Of a DNA stretch of 64,000 bases, positions 20,636 to 27,302 are shown piece by piece. The stretch covers positions 103,430 through 167,429 of the forward strand of contig CAIOAT010000013.1 of the NCBI GenBank assembly GCA_903856085.1, given 5' to 3'. Origin of the DNA: Candidatus Omnitrophota bacterium (lineage in GTDB: Bacteria; Omnitrophota; Omnitrophia; Omnitrophales; Aquincolibacteriaceae). The notes beneath the pieces were generated by a model. The model was not told the DNA's origin. It searched no databases and saw only the letters and a program-made list of their open reading frames with translations. How positions within the stretch are numbered: position 1 is the stretch's first letter; each line of letters begins with the position of its first letter. The position numbers and the translations under genes were made by a program.

Positions 20636-20832
20636 CCCCCTCCGACGAAACTGACGATCTCGATCATATCCTGATCCTTGAGTGTGATCTTGTGCCAGTC
20701 TTCTTTAGAGATAATGCTGAAGTTGTGTTCAACCACGATCTTGTCAGGACACAAGCCTTTCGCTGCAACGAGCGCATCGAGGCTCAAAGGTTTGTCGATC
20801 GATTCTTGTTTTCCGTTGAGGGTGAGGATCAT
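20632..20832 (-). CDS. thiS: Sulfur carrier protein ThiS.
   Basis: 66-aa protein ending in GG. It is the first gene of the thiSGHF block. Confidence 0.7.
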
Positions 20833-20956
20833 GAACTCTTTTCCTTATTTAAGGGAACTATGCGCTCTATCTTAAACGAAAAAGAATCTTGTTTCTATCG
20901 AAAGGTAGCCGGCGCTAAGGCAACGGCCCGTAACACCTTTTCTTCAGCTCCAAAAA

Positions 20957-22591
20957 TCACGGAACGTAGCTTTCATAAACCGGTTCATACATTTGGCTTT
21001 CAAGATAGGCTCGAAGATTCTCAGGCTTGGGTTGGGCCGCAAGTCCTTCACGGTAAGCAACCAAAGCGACGGCTTCCGCAATTGCGAGTGAAACCTTACG
21101 AACATCTTTGAGAGGCGGATAAATACGGCCTTTCCCAAGATCCTCTTCCGTTACTTTTTCGGCCAACGTTTTTGCGGCGACAAAGAACATCTCATCAGTC
21201 ACGTGCTGAACGCGACATGCTGTAACTCCCAAACCCACTCCCGGGAAAATATAAGCATTATTGCTCTGCCCCGGAGAAAACAGCTTCCCCTGGTAATCGA
21301 CCGGAGGGAACGGACTGCCACTTGCAAAAATAGCGCGCCCCTGGGTAAAGAAATAGGCTTGCTCTGCCGTGCATTCCGAGTGGCTTGTGGGATTCGACAT
21401 CGCGAAAACAATCGGCCTTTCGTTGATCCTGGCCATCGCCTCCAAAACCTCTTTCGTAAAAGTCCCTGGTCTTCCGGACGCGCCAAGGATCACGGTCGGC
21501 TTCACAAGCTCCACAGCGCTCAAACAATCGGATGCACCCGGCCCGTCCACCGCAAAAATCCGCTTTCGCTCATCCAGATCCGTGCGGCTCGACACCACAA
21601 GCCCTTTGGAATCCACGAACAAACACCGGCTGCGGGCTTCTTTTTCGGTAAGACCCTCTTTCATCATCGCGCCCACAACCAGACTCCCGGTCCCAAGCCC
21701 CGCTTCTCCCGCTCCCAAAAAGAGAATTTTCTGATCCTTCAAACTCCCTCCCCGGACCCTCACCGCAGAATAAAGCCCGGCCAACGCCACGCTCGCAGTT
21801 CCTTGGATATCATCATTGAACGTGCAAACACGACTGCGATATTTCTGAAGAAGATGGAAAGCATTCTCGTTGGCGAAATCCTCGAACTGGATTAGAACAT
21901 GCGGGAACACTTCGCGCGCTGCGGTCACAAACTCTTCAATAAGATCCTCATAGTCTTTCCCTCGCAAACGGGGACGCTGCATCCCGATATAAAGAGGATC
22001 TTTCAAACGCGCTTCATTATTGGTCCCAACATCCAGCGTCACCGGCAAACAATACTTCGGATGAACCCCGGCACAAGCCGTATAAAGCATGAGCTTCCCT
22101 ACGGGGATCCCCATGCCGTCCGCTCCAAGGTCCCCAAGCCCCAGGATCCTTTCCCCGTCAGTCACCACAATAATACGAACATCCTTCCGGGGCCAATCCT
22201 CAAGAACTTTCTTCATCCGCCCTTTGCATTGCGCTCCCAGGAACAAACCTTCATGACTGCTCCGGAGAATGCGCCCGTACTCCTGACACGCTTTCCCCAC
22301 GGTCGGCGTATACACGATCGGCATAATTTCCGCGAGATGATCGATGAGAAGACGGTAGAAAAGCGTTTTGTTGCGTTCCTGCAGCCCTGTCAAATAAATA
22401 TACTTTTCGAGATCCGAACTTTTGGCGCGAACATTGCTCATAGCACGTTCGACCTGATCTTCCAAGGAATCTACGCGAGCCGGAAGTAATCCCGCAAGCC
22501 CGAGGGCTTCCCTCTCCGCCTGGGTGAAAGCCGTCCCTTTATTCAGCAGGGGATCCCGCAACAGCTCTACACCTTTCGGAAGCTCGCTCAT
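20957..22591 (-). CDS. NAD(P)-dependent malic enzyme (large, eukaryotic-type).
   Basis: Strong malic enzyme motifs: VYTPTVG, FNDDIQGTASVALAG, FLGAGEAG, SNPT. The start was taken at the MSELPKG ATG. The first in-frame ATG in the ORF track is at 22648. Confidence 0.85.
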   Translation of the reverse strand: MSELPKGVELLRDPLLNKGTAFTQAEREALGLAGLLPARVDSLEDQVERAMSNVRAKSSDLEKYIYLTGLQERNKTLFYRLLIDHLAEIMPIVYTPTVGKACQEYGRILRSSHEGLFLGAQCKGRMKKVLEDWPRKDVRIIVVTDGERILGLGDLGADGMGIPVGKLMLYTACAGVHPKYCLPVTLDVGTNNEARLKDPLYIGMQRPRLRGKDYEDLIEEFVTAAREVFPHVLIQFEDFANENAFHLLQKYRSRVCTFNDDIQGTASVALAGLYSAVRVRGGSLKDQKILFLGAGEAGLGTGSLVVGAMMKEGLTEKEARSRCLFVDSKGLVVSSRTDLDERKRIFAVDGPGASDCLSAVELVKPTVILGASGRPGTFTKEVLEAMARINERPIVFAMSNPTSHSECTAEQAYFFTQGRAIFASGSPFPPVDYQGKLFSPGQSNNAYIFPGVGLGVTACRVQHVTDEMFFVAAKTLAEKVTEEDLGKGRIYPPLKDVRKVSLAIAEAVALVAYREGLAAQPKPENLRAYLESQMYEPVYESYVP

Positions 22592-22682
22592 AATATTTTT
22601 CTTCTTCATGAGAGTTAAGATCTCCTCTTCTGTTTTGCTGTCCCCCAACCGATCCTGTCAGGGAATTTTTCAGAACTTACAT

Positions 22683-22934
22683 TTAATAATTAAAAAGATC
22701 CCGATGCGCAAACTTTAGTTCGGGAAGTGCGTTATGGATCGCACTCAGAATCTTGGTTTTGGCCCTGGCGGTCAGACGCCTTCCCTTGCGCGCCTTTTGC
22801 ACCACCTTATGGGACAACTGATCGGTCGAAGCCATAACAAGCACATGGTTGGTAAGCCCGTGCTTTGTCATCAGAGTATCAAGCGGCTGCAGTCCGAAAT
22901 CGTTTTCATCTTTCATGTCTGGAGGAACGGTCAT
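22683..22934 (-). CDS. Small basic hypothetical protein (83 aa). The start codon lies inside the terminus of repeat copy B.
   Basis: ORF MTVPPDMKDENDF...KARKGRRLTARAKTKILSAIHNAL. It has no recognisable family. Its ATGACCGT start is supplied by the repeat, so it may be an ORF created by the repeat. Confidence 0.3.
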   Translation of the reverse strand: MTVPPDMKDENDFGLQPLDTLMTKHGLTNHVLVMASTDQLSHKVVQKARKGRRLTARAKTKILSAIHNALPELKFAHRDLFNY

Positions 22935-23020
22935 TGTTTAAAGTCCTGTTGTCATTAAGGTTGACCAGGAACGCCCCAATTTCAACTGCGTGAAATTGAT
23001 GGGTATTGGGACGATCATGT
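22926..23020. repeat. Palindromic repeat family, copy B (long variant).
   Basis: ACGGTCATTGTTTAAAGTCC...AAGGTTGACCAGGAACGCCCCAATTTCAACTGCGTGAAATTGATGGGTATTGGGACGATCATGTCTGAAGC. The CCCAATTTCA/TGAAATTG stem can form a hairpin. Its terminal ACGnTCAT(T)GT motifs are repeated directly. Confidence 0.7.
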
Positions 23021-24028
23021 CTGAAGCTTGCTAACAGCGGCGAGCAAGTCCTTTGTCGCGGGATATTTCTTGAGCTGTTCAATCAGCGCGCTGATCGCTT
23101 CAATAGGTTTAAGGCCGGCCAAGGCACGGCGTATCCGGCGCGCGGGTTCCAGCTCCTCAAGCGTAAAAAGAAGTTCTTCTTTGCGTGTTCCGCTTTTTGA
23201 TATATCCACAGCCGGATAAATGCGCTGGTTCGAAATTTCGCGGGATAGAAATATCTCCATATTGCCGGTCCCTTTAAACTCTTCGAAGATGAGCTGGTCC
23301 ATACGGCTTCCGGTGTCAACCAGAATCGTCGCGAGGATCGTAAGCGATCCTCCGTGCTCGATCTTGCGAGCAGATCCAAAAATTCGCCGCGGAACTTCCA
23401 TCGAACGCGCATCCACGCCTCCGGAAAGTGTCCGGCCGCTGGAACGTTGTTCTGCGTTATGCACACGAGCCAAGCGGGTCAGGGAATCAACCAGCACCAT
23501 GACGTTGGCACCTGCCGCTACCTCGCGATACACTTGCTGCATGAGCTCTCGGGCAGTCTGGATATGATGATCGTAAGGTTGATCGGAGGATGACCACCGG
23601 ACCTCGGCCGTCACACTGCGCCGGAAATCTGTGACTTCTTCAGGCCTTTCATCGATCAAAAGACAATAAAGCTTCATCTCCGGACGGCTTTTGGCGACGG
23701 CCTGGCAAAGATGCTTGAGGAAAGTTGTTTTTCCGGAACCCGGAGGAGCCACGATCAATCCGCGCTGCCCCATACCGATCGGCGCAATGAGATCCATGAC
23801 ACGCATCGTCAGCTCTTCCGAACCATTTTCAAGGCGGATACGCGGCGATGGATCGACGGCGGTGCTGGCAAAAAATTTCTGCTCGTCTTCAGCCACAACA
23901 CGTCGGGGTTCTTCATGCGGGGGTCTGTAAGTAGGACGGTGAGGATTGGGACCGCGGTTTGAGTAACGTTCTCCGCGGGATCTTTGAGGCCCACTCCCTG
24001 AACGTTCCCGGTGTTCAAAATTTCTCAT
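23015..24028 (-). CDS. rho: Transcription termination factor Rho: RecA-like ATPase core only, with the canonical N-terminal RNA-binding domain absent.
   Basis: The C-terminal ~280 aa align throughout to E. coli Rho: [82 protein letters not shown]. The start was taken at the MRNFEH ATG (24028), overlapping the ABC-F stop as ATGA. Upstream of the core there are only ~50 aa of R/G/P-rich sequence. Confidence 0.8.
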   Translation of the reverse strand: [337 protein letters not shown]

Positions 24029-25833
24029 GGTTGAAGTTTTCCCATTTTTCTTTCTAAAGAGCTCCACTCGGCCTCGGCAGCTTCAATCTGGATCTGCAGC
24101 TCCTTTAAGCGCACGTTGCGATCTTTGGAAAAATGGAGCGGGTTCTTCGCTATCTCTTCGAGAACTTTATTCCGTTCTTCGGTAAAATGCCGCGCACGCC
24201 CCTCGGCCTTTTCCATCCCCTTGCGAAGTTTTGAAAGCTCAGCTTTATGCTCATCCTTTTTAGGCTGCTGGACTTCAACATTGAGTCTGGAAGCAGCACT
24301 TTGGGAAGATGCAGACCCGCTATCCTCATCAGTATCTTCTTCCTCCCCTCGAGCCACCTGCTCCAGGTGATAAACATAATCCTCATAACTTCCGGGATAA
24401 TGGAGGATACGGCCTTTCTTCACTTCGAGAATGCTTGAGGCCAGAAGATTGACAAAGGTCCGATCATGGCTGATGAAAACCACAGTGCCGGAGAATGTCT
24501 TGAGCGCGCGCCCCAAAGCTTCCACAGTCTCGAAATCCAGATGGTTCGTCGGCTCGTCCAGAAGCAGGACATGGCTCTTTGAAAGAAGGATTCCCGCCAA
24601 AACGAGTCGCGCCCGCTCGCCGCCACTGAGAACCTTCACCTTCTTTTCGACATCATCCCCTTTAAAAAGAAAGCATCCGGCCATATTAAGCACATCCTGA
24701 CGGGTCACGCCATCCGAGCTCTCGCGCAAAAGATAAGTGTACACATCATCGTCCGGGTCAAGCACCGCAAAGACATGCTGGGCATAATAAGCGACTTTAA
24801 GCCCTGTTCCCCAGCGAAAGCTACCGCCTTTGGACACGAGATCTCCCGCCAGAGTCCTGAGGAATGTCGTCTTTCCTTCACCGTTATTGCCGAGCACCGC
24901 GACATGCTTTCCACGATCGATCTCAACCTGGATGCCGCGCGCAATATCTTTTTCCGGATAACCGATCACAAGATCTTCGCAGGTCACCGCGACCCCCGCT
25001 TTCGGCTCCACAGGTGGGATATGGATCTTGACCGTGCTCATCGGATGCGCGATTTCGATCGTCTTGAGTTTTGAGAGCTGTTTCATCTTTGACTGGGCGC
25101 GCGTCGCCGTGGAGGCCTTGGCCTTAAACCGGTCAATAAAAGTCTGCAGTTGTTCGCGCTTTTTGTCGAGCCCGCGATTGTAGGCCTGCTTTTGCGCGAG
25201 TTGTTCTTCCTTAAACTCGAAATATTCTTCGATATCCCCGGGGAAAAGAGCAAGTCCTCCGTGCTCAACCTCGAGAGTATGGTCGCAAGTCCGCTTCAGA
25301 AACTCCCGGTCGTGGGAAACCACCAGATATCCGCCTCTGAAATTAAGCAGAAAATTCTCCAGCAGGATCAACGTGCTTAGATCCAAATAATTGCTAGGTT
25401 CGTCAAGAATCAGGAAATTGGGATCACCCAGGAGCATCGCCGCAAGCTTCACGCGGGTCTGGAAACCTCCCGGAAGATTCCGCACAGATTCTTCGAGGAT
25501 CTCGTTTTTAAGCTGGAACCGCGCAGCGATCTGCCCGCATTCCCAATGCTCGCTCCGTGTGGTGCGCATCAAGAAATCCACCACCCGCTCGCCGGGCTTG
25601 AAGGTGTCATGCTGTTCGAGATAGGAAAGACGCAGCGCAGCATTACGCGTGATAGTACCGCTGTCGGCCGATTCGTGTCCGGTGATGATGCGGCAAAGCG
25701 TGGATTTCCCGGCACCGTTTCGACCGATCACGCCGATCTTTTGGTCATCACCAAAAGACGCCGTCGCGGCATCCAGGATCGTCACAGCGCCGTAGGCTTT
25801 ATGAAGCTCGTTAACTTGTAAAAGGACGGTCAT
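24025..25833 (-). CDS. ABC-F family ATPase (two ABC domains plus a C-terminal coiled coil; Uup/EttA-like).
   Basis: Two Walker A motifs (GRNGAGKST, GNNGEGKTT), two LSGG signatures and a charged coiled-coil C-terminus. The MTV start codon lies in the terminus of repeat copy C. Confidence 0.85.
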   Translation of the reverse strand: MTVLLQVNELHKAYGAVTILDAATASFGDDQKIGVIGRNGAGKSTLCRIITGHESADSGTITRNAALRLSYLEQHDTFKPGERVVDFLMRTTRSEHWECGQIAARFQLKNEILEESVRNLPGGFQTRVKLAAMLLGDPNFLILDEPSNYLDLSTLILLENFLLNFRGGYLVVSHDREFLKRTCDHTLEVEHGGLALFPGDIEEYFEFKEEQLAQKQAYNRGLDKKREQLQTFIDRFKAKASTATRAQSKMKQLSKLKTIEIAHPMSTVKIHIPPVEPKAGVAVTCEDLVIGYPEKDIARGIQVEIDRGKHVAVLGNNGEGKTTFLRTLAGDLVSKGGSFRWGTGLKVAYYAQHVFAVLDPDDDVYTYLLRESSDGVTRQDVLNMAGCFLFKGDDVEKKVKVLSGGERARLVLAGILLSKSHVLLLDEPTNHLDFETVEALGRALKTFSGTVVFISHDRTFVNLLASSILEVKKGRILHYPGSYEDYVYHLEQVARGEEEDTDEDSGSASSQSAASRLNVEVQQPKKDEHKAELSKLRKGMEKAEGRARHFTEERNKVLEEIAKNPLHFSKDRNVRLKELQIQIEAAEAEWSSLERKMGKLQP

Positions 25834-25940
25834 TGTCTAAAATTCTTTTCTATTACGGTTGGTAATAACCGCCCCAATCTCAGCATTGCTTCGATTGATG
25901 GGTAATGGGACGTTCATTGTTTAAGATTCTATTTTATGGG
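25824..25940. repeat. Palindromic repeat family, copy C (long variant).
   Basis: GGACGGTCATTGTCTAAAATTC...GGTTGGTAATAACCGCCCCAATCTCAGCATTGCTTCGATTGATGGGTAATGGGACGTTCATTGTTTAAGATTC. A direct repeat of ~22 nt sits at both ends. It is nearly identical to copy G inside waaA. Confidence 0.7.
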
Positions 25941-25973
25941 ATCCATGTTAAATAAAGATGGAAAGACTACTGA

Positions 25974-27116
25974 TCACGCGCGCGAGACGATGATCTTTGC
26001 CACAGCATCCGGCGTGATGTCGCCGTGTTCTCCGAAAACCGAGTCCCTCTCCGCAAAACGTTCACGCACTTTGCGCGCGGCTTCCTTGGCGGAGATCTTA
26101 TAGTCGCCAAAGCGCGTCGGCATCGCAACGGAATGAAAAAACGCTTCGGTTTTCATAATGGCCTCTTTCGCGGTCTTGACGTTCCAGACACGTCGGCCGT
26201 ATTGTTCCAACTTTTTCTTTTTAGCGGTCAATTTGTACTGCCAAACCCCCGGCAGAACGACCGCCAAGGTCTCGGCGTGATCGAGTCCGTAAAAAGCGGT
26301 CAGCTCGTGGGCGATCATGTGAGTCGACCAATCTTGCGGCACGCCGCAACCGATCAAGGTGTTCAGCGCAAGCGTCGCGCTCCACATAAACGTCGCGCGG
26401 GCTTCATAATCCTTCGGTTTTTTCAAAGCTGTGGGCGCTACTTCGAGCAAAGTTTGAAGAAGCGATTCCGCCATCCGGTCCTGAAGCGGCGCATTCGCAG
26501 GATACGTCATGTACTGCTCCATAACATGCACAAAAGCGTCCACGATCCCATTGCGTATTTGCTTCGAAGGCAATGAAAAGGTTGTTTCGGGATCCAATAC
26601 GGAAAACTGCGGAAACACATAAGGCGAGAAGAAGTGAAGCTTTTCCTGGGTCGCCTTCCGGGAGATCACGGAGTTTCCGTTCGATTCGGAACCTGTCGCG
26701 GGAAGCGTCAGCACGGTCCCGAGCGGAAGCGCTGCTTTGACGTTGGTACCATGTTCCCGAAGAATCGACCATGGATCCTGGCCCGTGAAACACGCTGCGG
26801 CCGCGATGAATTTGGCAGCATCCAGGACCGAGCCTCCACCCACCGCGAGAATAAAACCAAGCTTCTCTTTTTTAACAATTTCAACGGCCTTGAGGCAGGT
26901 CTCATAGAGTGGATTCGATTCAATGCCGCCAAATTCGGTCATGCGATGACCCTTGAGGACAGCTCTTACCTGTTCATAAACGCCGTTCTTTTTGATCGAC
27001 CCACCGCCATAGAGAAAAAGCACGGAGAGATCCTTGGGAATTCGCCCCGCGATCTCGCGGATCATGCCCTTGCCGAAGAGAATCTCGGTGGGATTTTTAT
27101 AAACAAAATTCTGCAT
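25974..27116 (-). CDS. Iron-containing alcohol dehydrogenase family protein.
   Basis: 380 aa with LAVGGGSVLDAAKFIA and the conserved His-rich metal site (H...H) typical of Fe-ADH. Confidence 0.85.
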   Translation of the reverse strand: MQNFVYKNPTEILFGKGMIREIAGRIPKDLSVLFLYGGGSIKKNGVYEQVRAVLKGHRMTEFGGIESNPLYETCLKAVEIVKKEKLGFILAVGGGSVLDAAKFIAAAACFTGQDPWSILREHGTNVKAALPLGTVLTLPATGSESNGNSVISRKATQEKLHFFSPYVFPQFSVLDPETTFSLPSKQIRNGIVDAFVHVMEQYMTYPANAPLQDRMAESLLQTLLEVAPTALKKPKDYEARATFMWSATLALNTLIGCGVPQDWSTHMIAHELTAFYGLDHAETLAVVLPGVWQYKLTAKKKKLEQYGRRVWNVKTAKEAIMKTEAFFHSVAMPTRFGDYKISAKEAARKVRERFAERDSVFGEHGDITPDAVAKIIVSRA

Positions 27117-27226
27117 TCATAACTCCTATGAAATCGATACAAACATCACGCGTTACCGGAGGGCTCGCTCAAGATCAGGCGCCGCAACAACCCGCTTGTT
27201 TAGCACCGTTTTCCATTTGATTTTGC

Positions 27227-27302
27227 GGGTTAACGGTACAATCCAATTCTTAGCAATCTCCGCAAACCGGAAATTGGGGCAGTCCTCGTCAACCCTTCAG
27301 GG
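27227..27302. repeat. Palindromic repeat family, copy E (both arms present).
   Basis: GGGTTAACGGTACAATCCAATTCTTAGC...GGAAATTGGGGCAGTCCTCGTCAACCC. The arms are imperfect reverse complements. Confidence 0.65.

What the first reader, a model, noticed from the sequence alone, without database searches (positions are those of the whole stretch)
23015..24028. Rho factor lacking the canonical N-terminal RNA-binding domain
The Rho ORF is only 337-350 aa. The ABC-F gene occupies everything upstream on the same strand, with a stop/start ATGA overlap at 24025-24028, so there is no room for a longer N-terminus. The sequence aligns to E. coli Rho from about residue 130 onward (…[29 protein letters not shown]… against …[29 protein letters not shown]…), covering the P-loop, Q-loop, R-loop and the whole RecA-like core. 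The first ~50 residues ([50 protein letters not shown]) are an Arg/Gly/Pro-rich low-complexity tail. They do not form the N-terminal helical bundle plus OB-fold primary RNA-binding site that has motifs like GFGFLR. A Rho with an RGG-like disordered N-terminus replacing the OB fold would be an unusual architecture for RNA recognition.
Basis: partly seen in the sequence, partly recalled or inferred. Interest (0 to 1): 0.6.

Follow-up and report, generated by a model that had tools for sequence, protein, structure and literature searches.

The report
Rho motor without its RNA-recognition domain
This Omnitrophota gene encodes a real, well-conserved Rho-type RNA motor that lacks the whole N-terminal RNA-recognition domain and carries a short disordered basic tail instead; the same architecture occurs as an uncharacterised extra Rho copy in many marine bacteria, so it matters mainly if it proves to be the only Rho here.

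Summary
ORF 23015-24028 (-) encodes 337 aa, and its ATG overlaps the stop of the upstream ABC-F gene (ATGA, 24025-24028).

- **Domain content:** the protein matches Rho only from E. coli residue ~130 onward. No Rho_N or OB domain is detectable by Pfam, by custom HMMs in all six frames, or by AlphaFold2.
- **Motor core:** all ATPase and central-channel RNA-contact motifs are intact.
- **Not an artefact:** more than 100 homologues from independent Omnitrophota assemblies share the M-R/K-N-F start, a tail of about 38 aa (median; 45 aa here) rich in Arg, Pro and His, and the same junction.
- **The tail is not RGG-like.**

The architecture is not unprecedented. The protein groups (NJ bootstrap 81-92) with NTD-less Rho proteins of 314-331 aa. 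These are widespread in cultured marine Gammaproteobacteria, which by general knowledge also have a canonical Rho. Moreira et al. 2024 catalogued such "Rho-like ATPase domain" proteins in a supplement and dismissed them as non-functional.

I could not determine whether this lineage (Omnitrophia, Aquincolibacteriaceae) also has a canonical Rho. One distant Omnitrophota MAG does carry PF07497 and PF07498.

Most likely it is a hexameric RNA translocase that works without the primary RNA-binding site and captures RNA through its basic tails or through partner proteins. Interest is moderate, and high only if it is the sole Rho.

The parts
23015..24028 (-). NTD-less Rho-family gene, 337 aa plus stop
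   Evidence: ORF list and sequence. NF006886 scores 374 bits against a cut-off of 315, covering model positions 127-411 only. PF00006 is the only Pfam domain. More than 120 homologue clusters, nearly all of those that carry a source name being from Omnitrophota, have the same architecture.
23894..24028 (-). Residues 1-45: disordered basic tail rich in Arg, Pro and His, starting with the conserved M-R-N-F
   Evidence: pLDDT 46-58 with no secondary structure. Net charge +6, pI 11.6. Across the family the tail is 20% Arg, 14% Pro and 10% His, with a median length of 38 aa and median net charge +6. Sequence and length vary, but the M-[RK]-N-[FY] start is kept.
23804..23893 (-). Residues 46-75: acidic patch, short helix (EDEQKFFA) and the DPSPRIRLE connector, homologous to the E. 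coli Rho NTD-CTD linker (about residues 130-157)
   Evidence: Alignment to E. coli Rho. Helix 47-54 in the AF2 model. F52, P60, R63, L66 and E67 are invariant in 74 homologues.
23018..23803 (-). Residues 76-337: RecA-type Rho motor core and C-terminal helices
   Evidence: 49% identical to E. coli Rho residues 137-413. Foldseek gives rmsd 1.6-1.8 A to Rho structures. phmmer against PDB matches Rho chains only from about residue 136.
23726..23749 (-). Walker A / P-loop, APPGSGKT (residues 94-101)
   Evidence: Aligned to E. coli APPKAGKT. K184 and T185 are conserved; K181 is replaced by Gly. Invariant in the family.
23411..23449 (-). Q-loop, [13 protein letters not shown] (residues 194-206), a central-channel RNA contact
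   Evidence: Aligned to E. coli residues 278-290, with conservative changes K283R and T286S.
23297..23323 (-). R-loop, LVDTGSRMD (residues 236-244), a central-channel RNA contact
   Evidence: Aligned to E. coli residues 320-328, with K326R.
24025..24028 (-). ATGA stop/start overlap between ABC-F and rho (translational coupling)
   Evidence: Sequence. Present at the picked start in all 19 close loci, including a 1.78-Mb contig (L081). Absent in more distant family members.
24025..25833 (-). Upstream ABC-F (EttA/Uup-like) ATPase, 602 aa, likely co-transcribed with rho
   Evidence: Pfam ABC_tran x2 plus ABC_tran_Xtn. NF000355 scores 386 bits against a cut-off of 380. The order SAHH - Fe-ADH - ABC-F - rho is conserved in close relatives, with all four genes present in 14 of the 18 genome loci (some contigs are short) and in L081.
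22683..22934 (-). Downstream 83-aa conserved small protein with an XRE/lambda-repressor-like helix-turn-helix fold; possible operon partner
   Evidence: Sits downstream of rho in 16 of the 18 close loci (the two without it end at or inside rho), in L081 and in the 69%-identical L083. The family has about 147 members and no Pfam match. AF2 pLDDT is 83.5, and the best Foldseek hits are C.AhdI and C.Esp1396I controller proteins with weak E-values.

Best explanation
The gene encodes a genuine member of a distinct, widely distributed clade of Rho-family proteins. These keep the complete hexameric RecA-type motor but have lost the entire N-terminal primary RNA-binding domain.

Shown:
- The NTD is absent.
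- The Walker A and B motifs, the catalytic Glu/Arg pair, the Arg finger, and the Q- and R-loops are conserved.
- The N-terminal tail is disordered, strongly basic and specific to this lineage.
- The protein groups with NTD-less Rho proteins of Gammaproteobacteria and other phyla.
- In this family (Omnitrophia, Aquincolibacteriaceae) the gene is translationally coupled to an ABC-F gene.

Inferred:
- The protein forms a ring that hydrolyses ATP and threads RNA 5'->3' through its central channel, as Rho does.
- It cannot read YC-rich rut sites through OB clefts. Initial RNA capture is instead non-specific and electrostatic, through six flexible Arg/Pro/His tails on the face where the NTDs normally sit, and/or through partners such as NusG or subunits of a canonical Rho in mixed rings.

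I think it slightly more likely than not (about 55-60%) that the organism also has a Rho with a primary RNA-binding site and that this protein is a second, specialised motor. I put about 35% on it being the only Rho.
For: - **NTD absent:** Pfam, the NCBIfam alignment range, AF2, and custom NTD and Type-4 OB HMMs. The HMMs find nothing in six frames of 413 kb of Omnitrophota DNA (best E 2.9 and 0.12) while positive controls score 1e-5 to 1e-49.
- **Motor intact:** residue-by-residue alignment, 100 invariant columns in 74 homologues including all catalytic motifs, and structural superposition on Rho.
- **Real and conserved:** the best 120 homologue clusters, 68-93% identical, all have PF00006 but neither Rho_N nor Rho_RNA_bind (some also carry weak generic P-loop hits), and share the tail architecture.
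- **Clade:** in an NJ tree of the C-terminal domain, Omnitrophota plus Marinobacter L019 has bootstrap 81. Adding P0241 and the Sericytochromatia protein P0244 gives 92. This group is separate from the ~365-aa OB-retaining forms (bootstrap 100) and from canonical and long forms.
- **Extra copy elsewhere:** the same architecture is named Rho in Marinobacter, Allohahella, Nitrincola, Teredinibacter, Gilvimarinus, Neptunomonas, Endozoicomonas and Ketobacter. Moreira 2024 reports functional Rho in all Pseudomonadota studied and lists 28 ATPase-only 'Rho-like' proteins with 'the essential residues'.
- **A PBS-type Rho domain exists in the phylum:** Omnitrophota MAG GCA_023819605.1 carries PF07497 and PF07498.
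- **Basic disordered regions can aid RNA binding in Rho:** reported for Rho proteins with N-terminal insertions.
Against: - There is no biochemical evidence for any member of this clade. Moreira et al. call them 'not functional Rho factors'.
- Hexamer formation without NTDs is assumed, not shown.
- In E. coli, deleting even the first 27 residues abolishes RNA binding (cited). A tail may therefore not substitute for the primary binding site.
- The tail sequence is poorly conserved apart from the first four residues, so it could be a spacer rather than an RNA-binding element.
- Position 2 (R/K) is partly forced by the ATGA overlap.
- The conserved housekeeping operon and translational coupling fit a primary Rho better than an accessory gene. 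In Marinobacter the homologue stands alone among accessory genes.
Confidence: 0.6

Rival explanations
1. This is the sole Rho of the organism. The lineage lost the OB-fold primary RNA-binding site, and the Arg/Pro/His-rich disordered tail (possibly with NusG) now performs RNA loading. Genome-wide termination would then run without rut-type sequence reading.
For: - The gene is highly conserved and found in every Omnitrophota rho locus retrieved.
- It sits in a housekeeping operon with SAHH, Fe-ADH and ABC-F, and is translationally coupled.
- The tail is longer and more basic than in the gammaproteobacterial paralogues: median 38 aa and net +6, against 28 aa and net +3.
- No NTD-like sequence occurs in 413 kb of Omnitrophota DNA.
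- Omnitrophota genomes are small, 1.3-2.7 Mb in the rows seen.
Against: - Only about 64 kb of this genome, plus redundant loci, could be searched.
- Every cultured carrier of this clade named belongs to a group that has a canonical Rho.
- One Omnitrophota MAG has PF07497 and PF07498.
- PVC-group genomes often carry two rho genes.
Confidence: 0.35
2. It is an accessory subunit that works only in mixed rings with a canonical Rho. It would dilute the primary binding sites and so tune terminator selection or Rho activity.
For: - It co-occurs with canonical Rho in Pseudomonadota.
- The C-terminal domain, which carries the hexamer contacts, is about 49% identical to canonical Rho.
- Moreira et al. 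proposed trans-complementation in heterohexamers for Type 4 Rho.
Against: - No canonical partner has been shown in this genome.
- The clade is monophyletic and about 65% identical between phyla. This suggests its own conserved function and self-compatible interfaces.
- It is not linked to another rho gene in any locus examined.
Confidence: 0.2
3. It is a split Rho, with the primary RNA-binding domain supplied in trans by a separately encoded OB, cold-shock or Rho_N protein.
For: - Cold-shock-domain genes lie within 1.3-2 kb of rho in two divergent loci, L087 and L089.
- Stand-alone proteins with Rho_N plus RNA-binding domains exist in some Actinomycetota.
Against: - No cold-shock or NTD-like gene occurs in the window or in the 18 close loci.
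- The conserved neighbour, orf83, is predicted to be a helix-turn-helix protein, not an OB fold.
- Cold-shock genes are common, so adjacency in two of five divergent loci may be chance.
Confidence: 0.05
4. It is an artefact: a truncated gene call, a frameshift or an assembly error that hides a longer Rho.
For: None found. Some database entries are annotated 350-380 aa long.
Against: - The same M-R-N-F start and ATGA junction occur in independent assemblies.
- The frames upstream encode a complete ABC-F protein.
- The NTD HMMs are negative in all six frames.
- The longer annotations are over-called starts inside the ABC-F gene.
Confidence: 0.01

Closest known systems
'Rho-like ATPase domain' proteins (Moreira et al. 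2024, NAR 52:8979, supplement), i.e. the NTD-less Rho copies of Marinobacter, Colwellia psychrerythraea 34H, Marinomonas arctica, Endozoicomonas and Lacunisphaera
   Same: The architecture is the same: only the Rho ATPase/bicyclomycin-pocket domain, all essential residues kept, about 300-330 aa. The Marinobacter sp. BW6 homologue (L019) is 65% identical and groups with the Omnitrophota proteins in the tree.
   Different: - The Omnitrophota tail is a low-complexity Arg/Pro/His-rich sequence starting M-R-N-F. The gammaproteobacterial tail is a conserved Lys-rich peptide, MTRKTLGLTGTRKK....
- In this family the gene is translationally coupled to ABC-F inside a housekeeping cluster. In Marinobacter it stands alone.
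- Omnitrophota were not in the published survey.
- Co-existence with a canonical Rho is known there and unknown here.
Canonical Rho (E. coli type, Type 1; TIGR00767)
   Same: The motor core matches: 49% identity over E. coli residues 137-413, the same P-loop, catalytic Glu/Arg, Walker B, Arg finger, Q-loop and R-loop, and the same fold at rmsd about 1.7 A.
   Different: It lacks residues equivalent to E. coli 1 to about 129, meaning the helical bundle and the OB-fold primary binding site. It fails the TIGR00767 cut-off, 361 against 509 bits.
Type 4 / 'Group B' short Rho (about 365 aa) and NCBIfam NF041509 'paralog_Rho2, short form'
   Same: These are also shortened Rho proteins that often occur as second copies, with 52-54% identity in the C-terminal domain.
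   Different: Type 4 proteins keep an OB-like RNA-binding domain, although a degenerate one. My HMMs detect it. They form a separate clade with bootstrap 100. The window protein scores 322 on NF041509 against a cut-off of 628 and lacks the first 75 model positions.
Rho with disordered basic insertions (Type 2; M. tuberculosis, Micrococcus luteus, Bacteroides)
   Same: These also have an Arg-rich intrinsically disordered segment at the N-terminal side of the motor. It is proposed to raise RNA affinity or to drive condensation.
   Different: In those proteins the disordered region is inserted into an NTD that is otherwise complete. Here it stands alone, is much shorter (about 40 aa), and no OB fold is present.

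Membership tests
Canonical ('functional') Rho: TIGR00767, or the Moreira definition of RNA-binding plus ATPase domains | Rho-type RecA ATPase core with Walker A and B, catalytic Glu211/Arg212 and Arg finger R366 | tested here: met
   All are conserved. NF006886 scores 374 against 315. Foldseek gives rmsd 1.6-1.8 A to Rho.
Canonical ('functional') Rho: TIGR00767, or the Moreira definition of RNA-binding plus ATPase domains | Secondary RNA-binding site: Q-loop and R-loop | tested here: met
   [13 protein letters not shown] and LVDTGSRMD, with only conservative changes K283R, T286S and K326R.
Canonical ('functional') Rho: TIGR00767, or the Moreira definition of RNA-binding plus ATPase domains | OB-fold primary RNA-binding domain (PF07497, with the GFGFLR-type RNP motifs) | tested here: not met
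   No Pfam hit at E<=1. The custom NTD HMM is negative in six frames. AF2 shows a disordered tail.
Canonical ('functional') Rho: TIGR00767, or the Moreira definition of RNA-binding plus ATPase domains | N-terminal helical bundle (PF07498) | tested here: not met
Canonical ('functional') Rho: TIGR00767, or the Moreira definition of RNA-binding plus ATPase domains | Full-length equivalog score (TIGR00767 cut-off 509.45) | tested here: not met
   360.9 bits, with model positions 128-414 only.
Canonical ('functional') Rho: TIGR00767, or the Moreira definition of RNA-binding plus ATPase domains | Hexameric ring, RNA-dependent ATPase and termination activity | not testable with these tools
   Needs biochemistry.
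NTD-less Rho clade ('Rho-like ATPase domain' of Moreira 2024) | Only the Rho-specific ATPase domain, with the essential residues kept and no Rho_N or RNA-binding domain | tested here: met
.
NTD-less Rho clade ('Rho-like ATPase domain' of Moreira 2024) | Groups in a tree with other NTD-less Rho proteins rather than with canonical or Type 4 Rho | tested here: met
   NJ tree of the C-terminal domain, bootstrap 81-92. 65% identity to Marinobacter L019, against 49% to E. coli and 52-54% to Type 4. The tree method is simple (NJ, 36 taxa).
NTD-less Rho clade ('Rho-like ATPase domain' of Moreira 2024) | Occurs alongside a functional Rho in the same genome | not testable with these tools
   Only 64 kb of this genome is available. 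One distant Omnitrophota MAG has PF07497 and PF07498. The Pfam lists for other genomes are truncated in the stored copy.
Type 4 Rho / NF041509 paralog_Rho2 short form | Retains the OB-type RNA-binding domain; NF041509 score of at least 628 | tested here: not met
   321.8 bits, with model positions 76-359 only. The Type-4 OB HMM is negative. It forms a separate clade.
Other RecA-type hexameric ATPases (FliI/SctN, F1 alpha and beta subunits) | Score above the family cut-off | tested here: not met
   The best is TIGR02546, 80 bits against a cut-off of 605.

The most novel reading that the evidence does not exclude
In Aquincolibacteriaceae, and perhaps most of class Omnitrophia, this NTD-less protein is the only Rho. 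A whole bacterial lineage would then run factor-dependent termination with a ring motor that has no primary RNA-binding site. It would load through a 40-aa Arg/Pro/His-rich disordered tail and/or NusG, and its production would be translationally coupled to a ribosome-associated ABC-F factor.
Probability: 0.35. Interest if true: 0.75.

Novelty: new variant of a known kind. Interest (0 to 1): 0.45.

Why it matters
The primary RNA-binding site is regarded as the part of Rho that selects terminators and triggers ring closure. A conserved, catalytically intact Rho clade without it raises a direct question: can the motor work without rut recognition?

The clade is found throughout the Omnitrophota sampled here and is widespread in marine Gammaproteobacteria. 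Possible roles are a constitutive or NusG-dependent terminator, an R-loop or RNA remodeller, or a modulator subunit.

The only survey that noticed such proteins set them aside as non-functional. This work shows three things:
- they form one clade across phyla;
- they have lineage-specific basic tails;
- cultured hosts exist (Marinobacter, Colwellia, Endozoicomonas), so the question can be tested experimentally.

If the protein is the sole Rho in Omnitrophota, it would change the minimal definition of a Rho factor.

Tried and rejected
1. **Frameshift or hidden NTD upstream.** Rejected by the six-frame HMM search with positive controls and by the conserved start.
2. **RGG-type tail.** Rejected by composition.
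3. **Membership of NF041509 'Rho2 short form'.** Rejected. L019, L021, P0241, P0244 and P0268 also fail it.
4. **orf83 as a primary-binding-site substitute.** Its predicted fold is an XRE-like helix-turn-helix, not an OB fold. A Verrucomicrobiales homologue is not next to rho, and the gene is absent beside rho in L087-L089.
5. **Cold-shock gene as a trans-acting binding domain.** One lies near rho in L087 and L089 but none in the window or in the other fetched loci apart from one non-Omnitrophota locus.
6. **ABC-F-rho coupling as a general feature of the clade.** It holds only for the Aquincolibacteriaceae-like subclade and L081, not for L083 or L087-L089 (L089 has an ABC-F about 2.3 kb upstream, but it is not adjacent or coupled).
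7. **Promoter and terminator scan of 20800-27300.** Nothing above background on the minus strand.
8. **Search for a second, full-length Rho in Omnitrophota.**
   - Literature searches were empty.
   - D'Heygere 2013 is not held.
   - The Seymour 2023 per-genome Pfam table is truncated after the first genome and part of the second.
   - The flanks of the two unnamed canonical-Rho loci, L032 and L063, share no informative genes with Omnitrophota.
Full report
**Observation**

The ORF at 23015-24028 on the minus strand is 337 aa from its ATG. A GTG 39 nt upstream would give 350 aa. The sequence reads ...caaccATGAgaaat..., so the TGA of the upstream 602-aa ABC-F gene (24025-25833) overlaps the rho ATG by four bases.

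Pfam detects only the generic PF00006 nucleotide-binding domain (residues 75-279). Rho_N and Rho_RNA_bind are absent even at E<=1. NCBIfam identifies the protein as Rho, but only over the C-terminal two thirds of each model:
- NF006886 positions 127-411 of 413, 374 bits against a cut-off of 315;
- TIGR00767 positions 128-414, 361 bits against a cut-off of 509.

All solved Rho structures match only from about residue 136 onward.

**Not an artefact**

The 120 best database clusters are 265-380 aa long and have PF00006 but neither Rho_N nor Rho_RNA_bind; some also carry weak generic P-loop hits. Where named, nearly all come from Candidatus Omnitrophota MAGs. Their N-termini share one plan:
- an M-[RK]-N-[FY] start;
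- a variable tail (median 38 aa; about 20% Arg, 14% Pro, 10% His; median net charge +6);
- an acidic D/E patch followed by [RK]F[FL];
- the invariant DPSPRIRLE connector, which corresponds to the E. coli NTD-CTD linker.

Longer annotated versions are over-called starts inside the ABC-F gene. The same ATGA junction is found at the start picked in all 19 close loci examined (in L010 the pick looks misplaced).

I built an HMM of the canonical NTD, which detects 134 of 150 diverse Rho representatives. I built a second HMM of the degenerate OB domain of ~365-aa short Rho proteins. Neither finds anything in any frame of 413 kb of Omnitrophota DNA (the window plus 21 loci; best E 2.9 and 0.12). Positive controls score 1e-5 to 1e-49.

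AlphaFold2 with a 74-sequence alignment gives pLDDT 87.7. Residues 1-40 are unstructured (pLDDT 46-58), a short helix spans 47-54, and the RecA core is confident. The model superposes on Rho chains at 1.6-1.8 A over about 285 residues.

The tail is not RGG-like. The window protein has no RGG, and only 4% of homologous tails have one.

**The motor is intact**

The following align with E. coli Rho with only conservative changes and are invariant across 74 homologues:
- Walker A (APPGSGKT);
- the catalytic pair E211/R212 (IDERPEEV is identical);
- Walker B (D265);
- the Arg finger (R366);
- the Q-loop (K283R, T286S);
- the R-loop (K326R).

**What it belongs to**

A scan of one genome per species returned 18 loci with the same short gene, most of them titled Omnitrophota and the rest 'uncultured bacterium'. 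Unexpectedly, it also returned a 331-aa, 65%-identical NTD-less Rho on a 636-kb contig of the cultured gammaproteobacterium Marinobacter sp. BW6.

Searching with that protein showed the architecture (314-331 aa, with PF00006 and no Rho_N or Rho_RNA_bind) in several named groups:
- Marinobacter species, Allohahella, Nitrincola, Teredinibacter, Gilvimarinus, Neptunomonas, Endozoicomonas, Ketobacter and Alteromonadaceae;
- Dongiaceae (Alphaproteobacteria) and Lentisphaeria.

A search of 50%-identity representatives added two more: a Sericytochromatia protein (P0244, 301 aa), and an unnamed family on circular genomes of 4.4-4.9 Mb (P0268, 328 aa, with an Arg-rich tail).

A neighbour-joining tree of the C-terminal domain gave these groupings:
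- Omnitrophota plus Marinobacter, bootstrap 81;
- that group plus P0241 and P0244, bootstrap 92;
- the ~365-aa OB-retaining short forms (Type 4) as a separate clade, bootstrap 100;
- P0268 outside the NTD-less group, possibly an independent loss.

**Prior knowledge**

Moreira et al. 2024 define four types of functional Rho, and all of them keep the OB domain. Their supplement lists 28 'Rho-like ATPase domain' proteins. The hosts include Colwellia psychrerythraea 34H, Marinomonas arctica, Lacunisphaera limnophila, Ktedonosporobacter and Myxococcales (the last with a D/G/R-rich initial domain). The authors describe these proteins as 'well conserved' with 'the essential residues', yet call them 'not functional Rho factors'.

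Omnitrophota were not in that dataset, and I found no paper that discusses Rho in Omnitrophota. The architecture is therefore catalogued but uncharacterised. In Pseudomonadota it is an extra copy, because every Pseudomonadota species in that survey has a functional Rho.

**Context**

By comparison with Seymour et al. 2023, the window belongs to Omnitrophia, Omnitrophales, Aquincolibacteriaceae (GTDB f__UBA2337). L006 is GCA_001804345.1 and L003 is fen_1321.

In this family, and in a 1.78-Mb contig whose Rho is 73% identical (L081), the gene order is SAHH, Fe-ADH, ABC-F, rho, orf83. ABC-F and rho are always joined by ATGA. More distant family members lack the ABC-F adjacency (L083, L087, L088, L089), so the coupling is a trait of this subclade.

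orf83 (22683-22934) follows rho in the close loci and in L083. It has about 147 relatives, those named being almost all from Omnitrophota, no Pfam match, and a predicted XRE-like helix-turn-helix fold. Its Verrucomicrobiales homologue is not next to rho.

No convincing promoter or terminator separates ABC-F, rho and orf83.

**The open question**

Is this the only Rho? I could not scan whole Omnitrophota genomes. The one usable datum is a per-genome Pfam table in Seymour et al., scored at the noise cut-off. In it, genome 58 (GCA_023819605.1; order B26-G9, class incertae sedis; 94% complete, 0.9% contamination) carries PF07497 and PF07498. A PBS-type Rho domain therefore exists somewhere in the phylum. 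The lists for the other genomes are cut off in the stored copy.

Evidence pointing to an extra copy:
- the gammaproteobacterial precedent;
- two rho genes are common in PVC-group genomes.

Evidence pointing to a primary role:
- the housekeeping, translationally coupled context;
- a tail that is longer and more basic than in the gammaproteobacterial copies.

I put about 35% on a sole Rho.

**Mechanism**

Shown: an intact Rho motor without a primary binding site, carrying a basic disordered tail.

- It forms a ring and translocates 5'->3' on RNA.
- Without the OB clefts it cannot read YC dinucleotides. Loading must rely on non-specific electrostatic capture by six tails on the NTD face, on the conserved N-terminal Phe-containing motif, or on partners such as NusG or canonical Rho subunits.

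Basic disordered insertions are reported to aid RNA binding in Rho proteins that do have an NTD, which makes the tail hypothesis plausible. It remains unproven.

**Verdict**

This is a new, lineage-specific variant of a catalogued but unstudied kind. Interest is moderate (0.45), rising to about 0.75 if complete genomes show that it is the only Rho.

Noticed in passing
window 22683-22934 (-); also L081 11043-11273 and L083 10984-11241: A conserved 76-85 aa gene lies directly downstream of the short rho. It has about 147 relatives, those named being almost all from Omnitrophota, and no Pfam match. The motif QPLD..NH.LV.AS..QL.HK.VQK.RKGRRLT and the C-terminal LFNY are nearly invariant. AF2 plus Foldseek suggest an XRE/lambda-repressor-like helix-turn-helix fold, with weak E-values. 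A Verrucomicrobiales homologue is not linked to rho.
   Followed up: partly
window 24025-24028; L001-L018 and L081 at the rho start: A ribosome-associated ABC-F (EttA/Uup-like) ATPase gene and rho are joined by an ATGA stop/start overlap in every close relative. This suggests coupled synthesis of a translation factor and a termination-type motor. The coupling is absent in more distant members of the clade.
   Followed up: partly
L019 9899-10894 (Marinobacter sp. BW6, NZ_VIRN01000061.1): A cultured gammaproteobacterium carries a 331-aa NTD-less Rho that is 65% identical to the window protein. It stands alone among accessory-looking genes (an SMR transporter, a beta-lactamase). Related copies with a conserved MTRKTLGLTGTRKK... 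N-terminus occur in many marine genera, which makes them tractable models for this clade.
   Followed up: partly
L085/L086 8001-8987 (P0268 cluster; circular contigs of 4.4-4.9 Mb): A second NTD-less Rho (328 aa) has an Arg-rich tail, MNKNRRQRGRGDRSQAGGRSHPPRNGQHRRGRQ.... It does not group with the Omnitrophota/Marinobacter clade in the NJ tree, so it may be an independent loss of the NTD.
   Followed up: no
P0244 (NCBI MEZ0371657.1, Candidatus Sericytochromatia bacterium): A 301-aa NTD-less Rho occurs in a non-photosynthetic relative of Cyanobacteria, a phylum usually described as lacking Rho. It sits on a 4.2-kb contig only, so binning is uncertain.
   Followed up: no
L021-L077 (e.g. L021 140-1234): Many Planctomycetota, Desulfobacterota, Aminicenantes and Anaerolineales genomes carry a Rho of about 365 aa with a degenerate OB domain (GVLK..G..L.DP instead of GFGFLR) and no helical bundle. 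These match the Type 4 / Group B description, form their own clade (bootstrap 100), and still fail NCBIfam NF041509.
   Followed up: partly
L087 7225-7425 and L089 2889-3092: Cold-shock-domain (OB-fold) genes lie 1.3-2 kb from the short rho in two divergent Omnitrophota-type loci. None occurs in the window or its close relatives, so this is probably chance.
   Followed up: partly
Seymour et al. 2023, Source Data Figs 3-5 (genome 58 = GCA_023819605.1): One Omnitrophota MAG (order B26-G9) is listed with PF07497 and PF07498, meaning a Rho-type primary RNA-binding domain. Rho architecture may therefore differ between Omnitrophota orders.
   Followed up: partly
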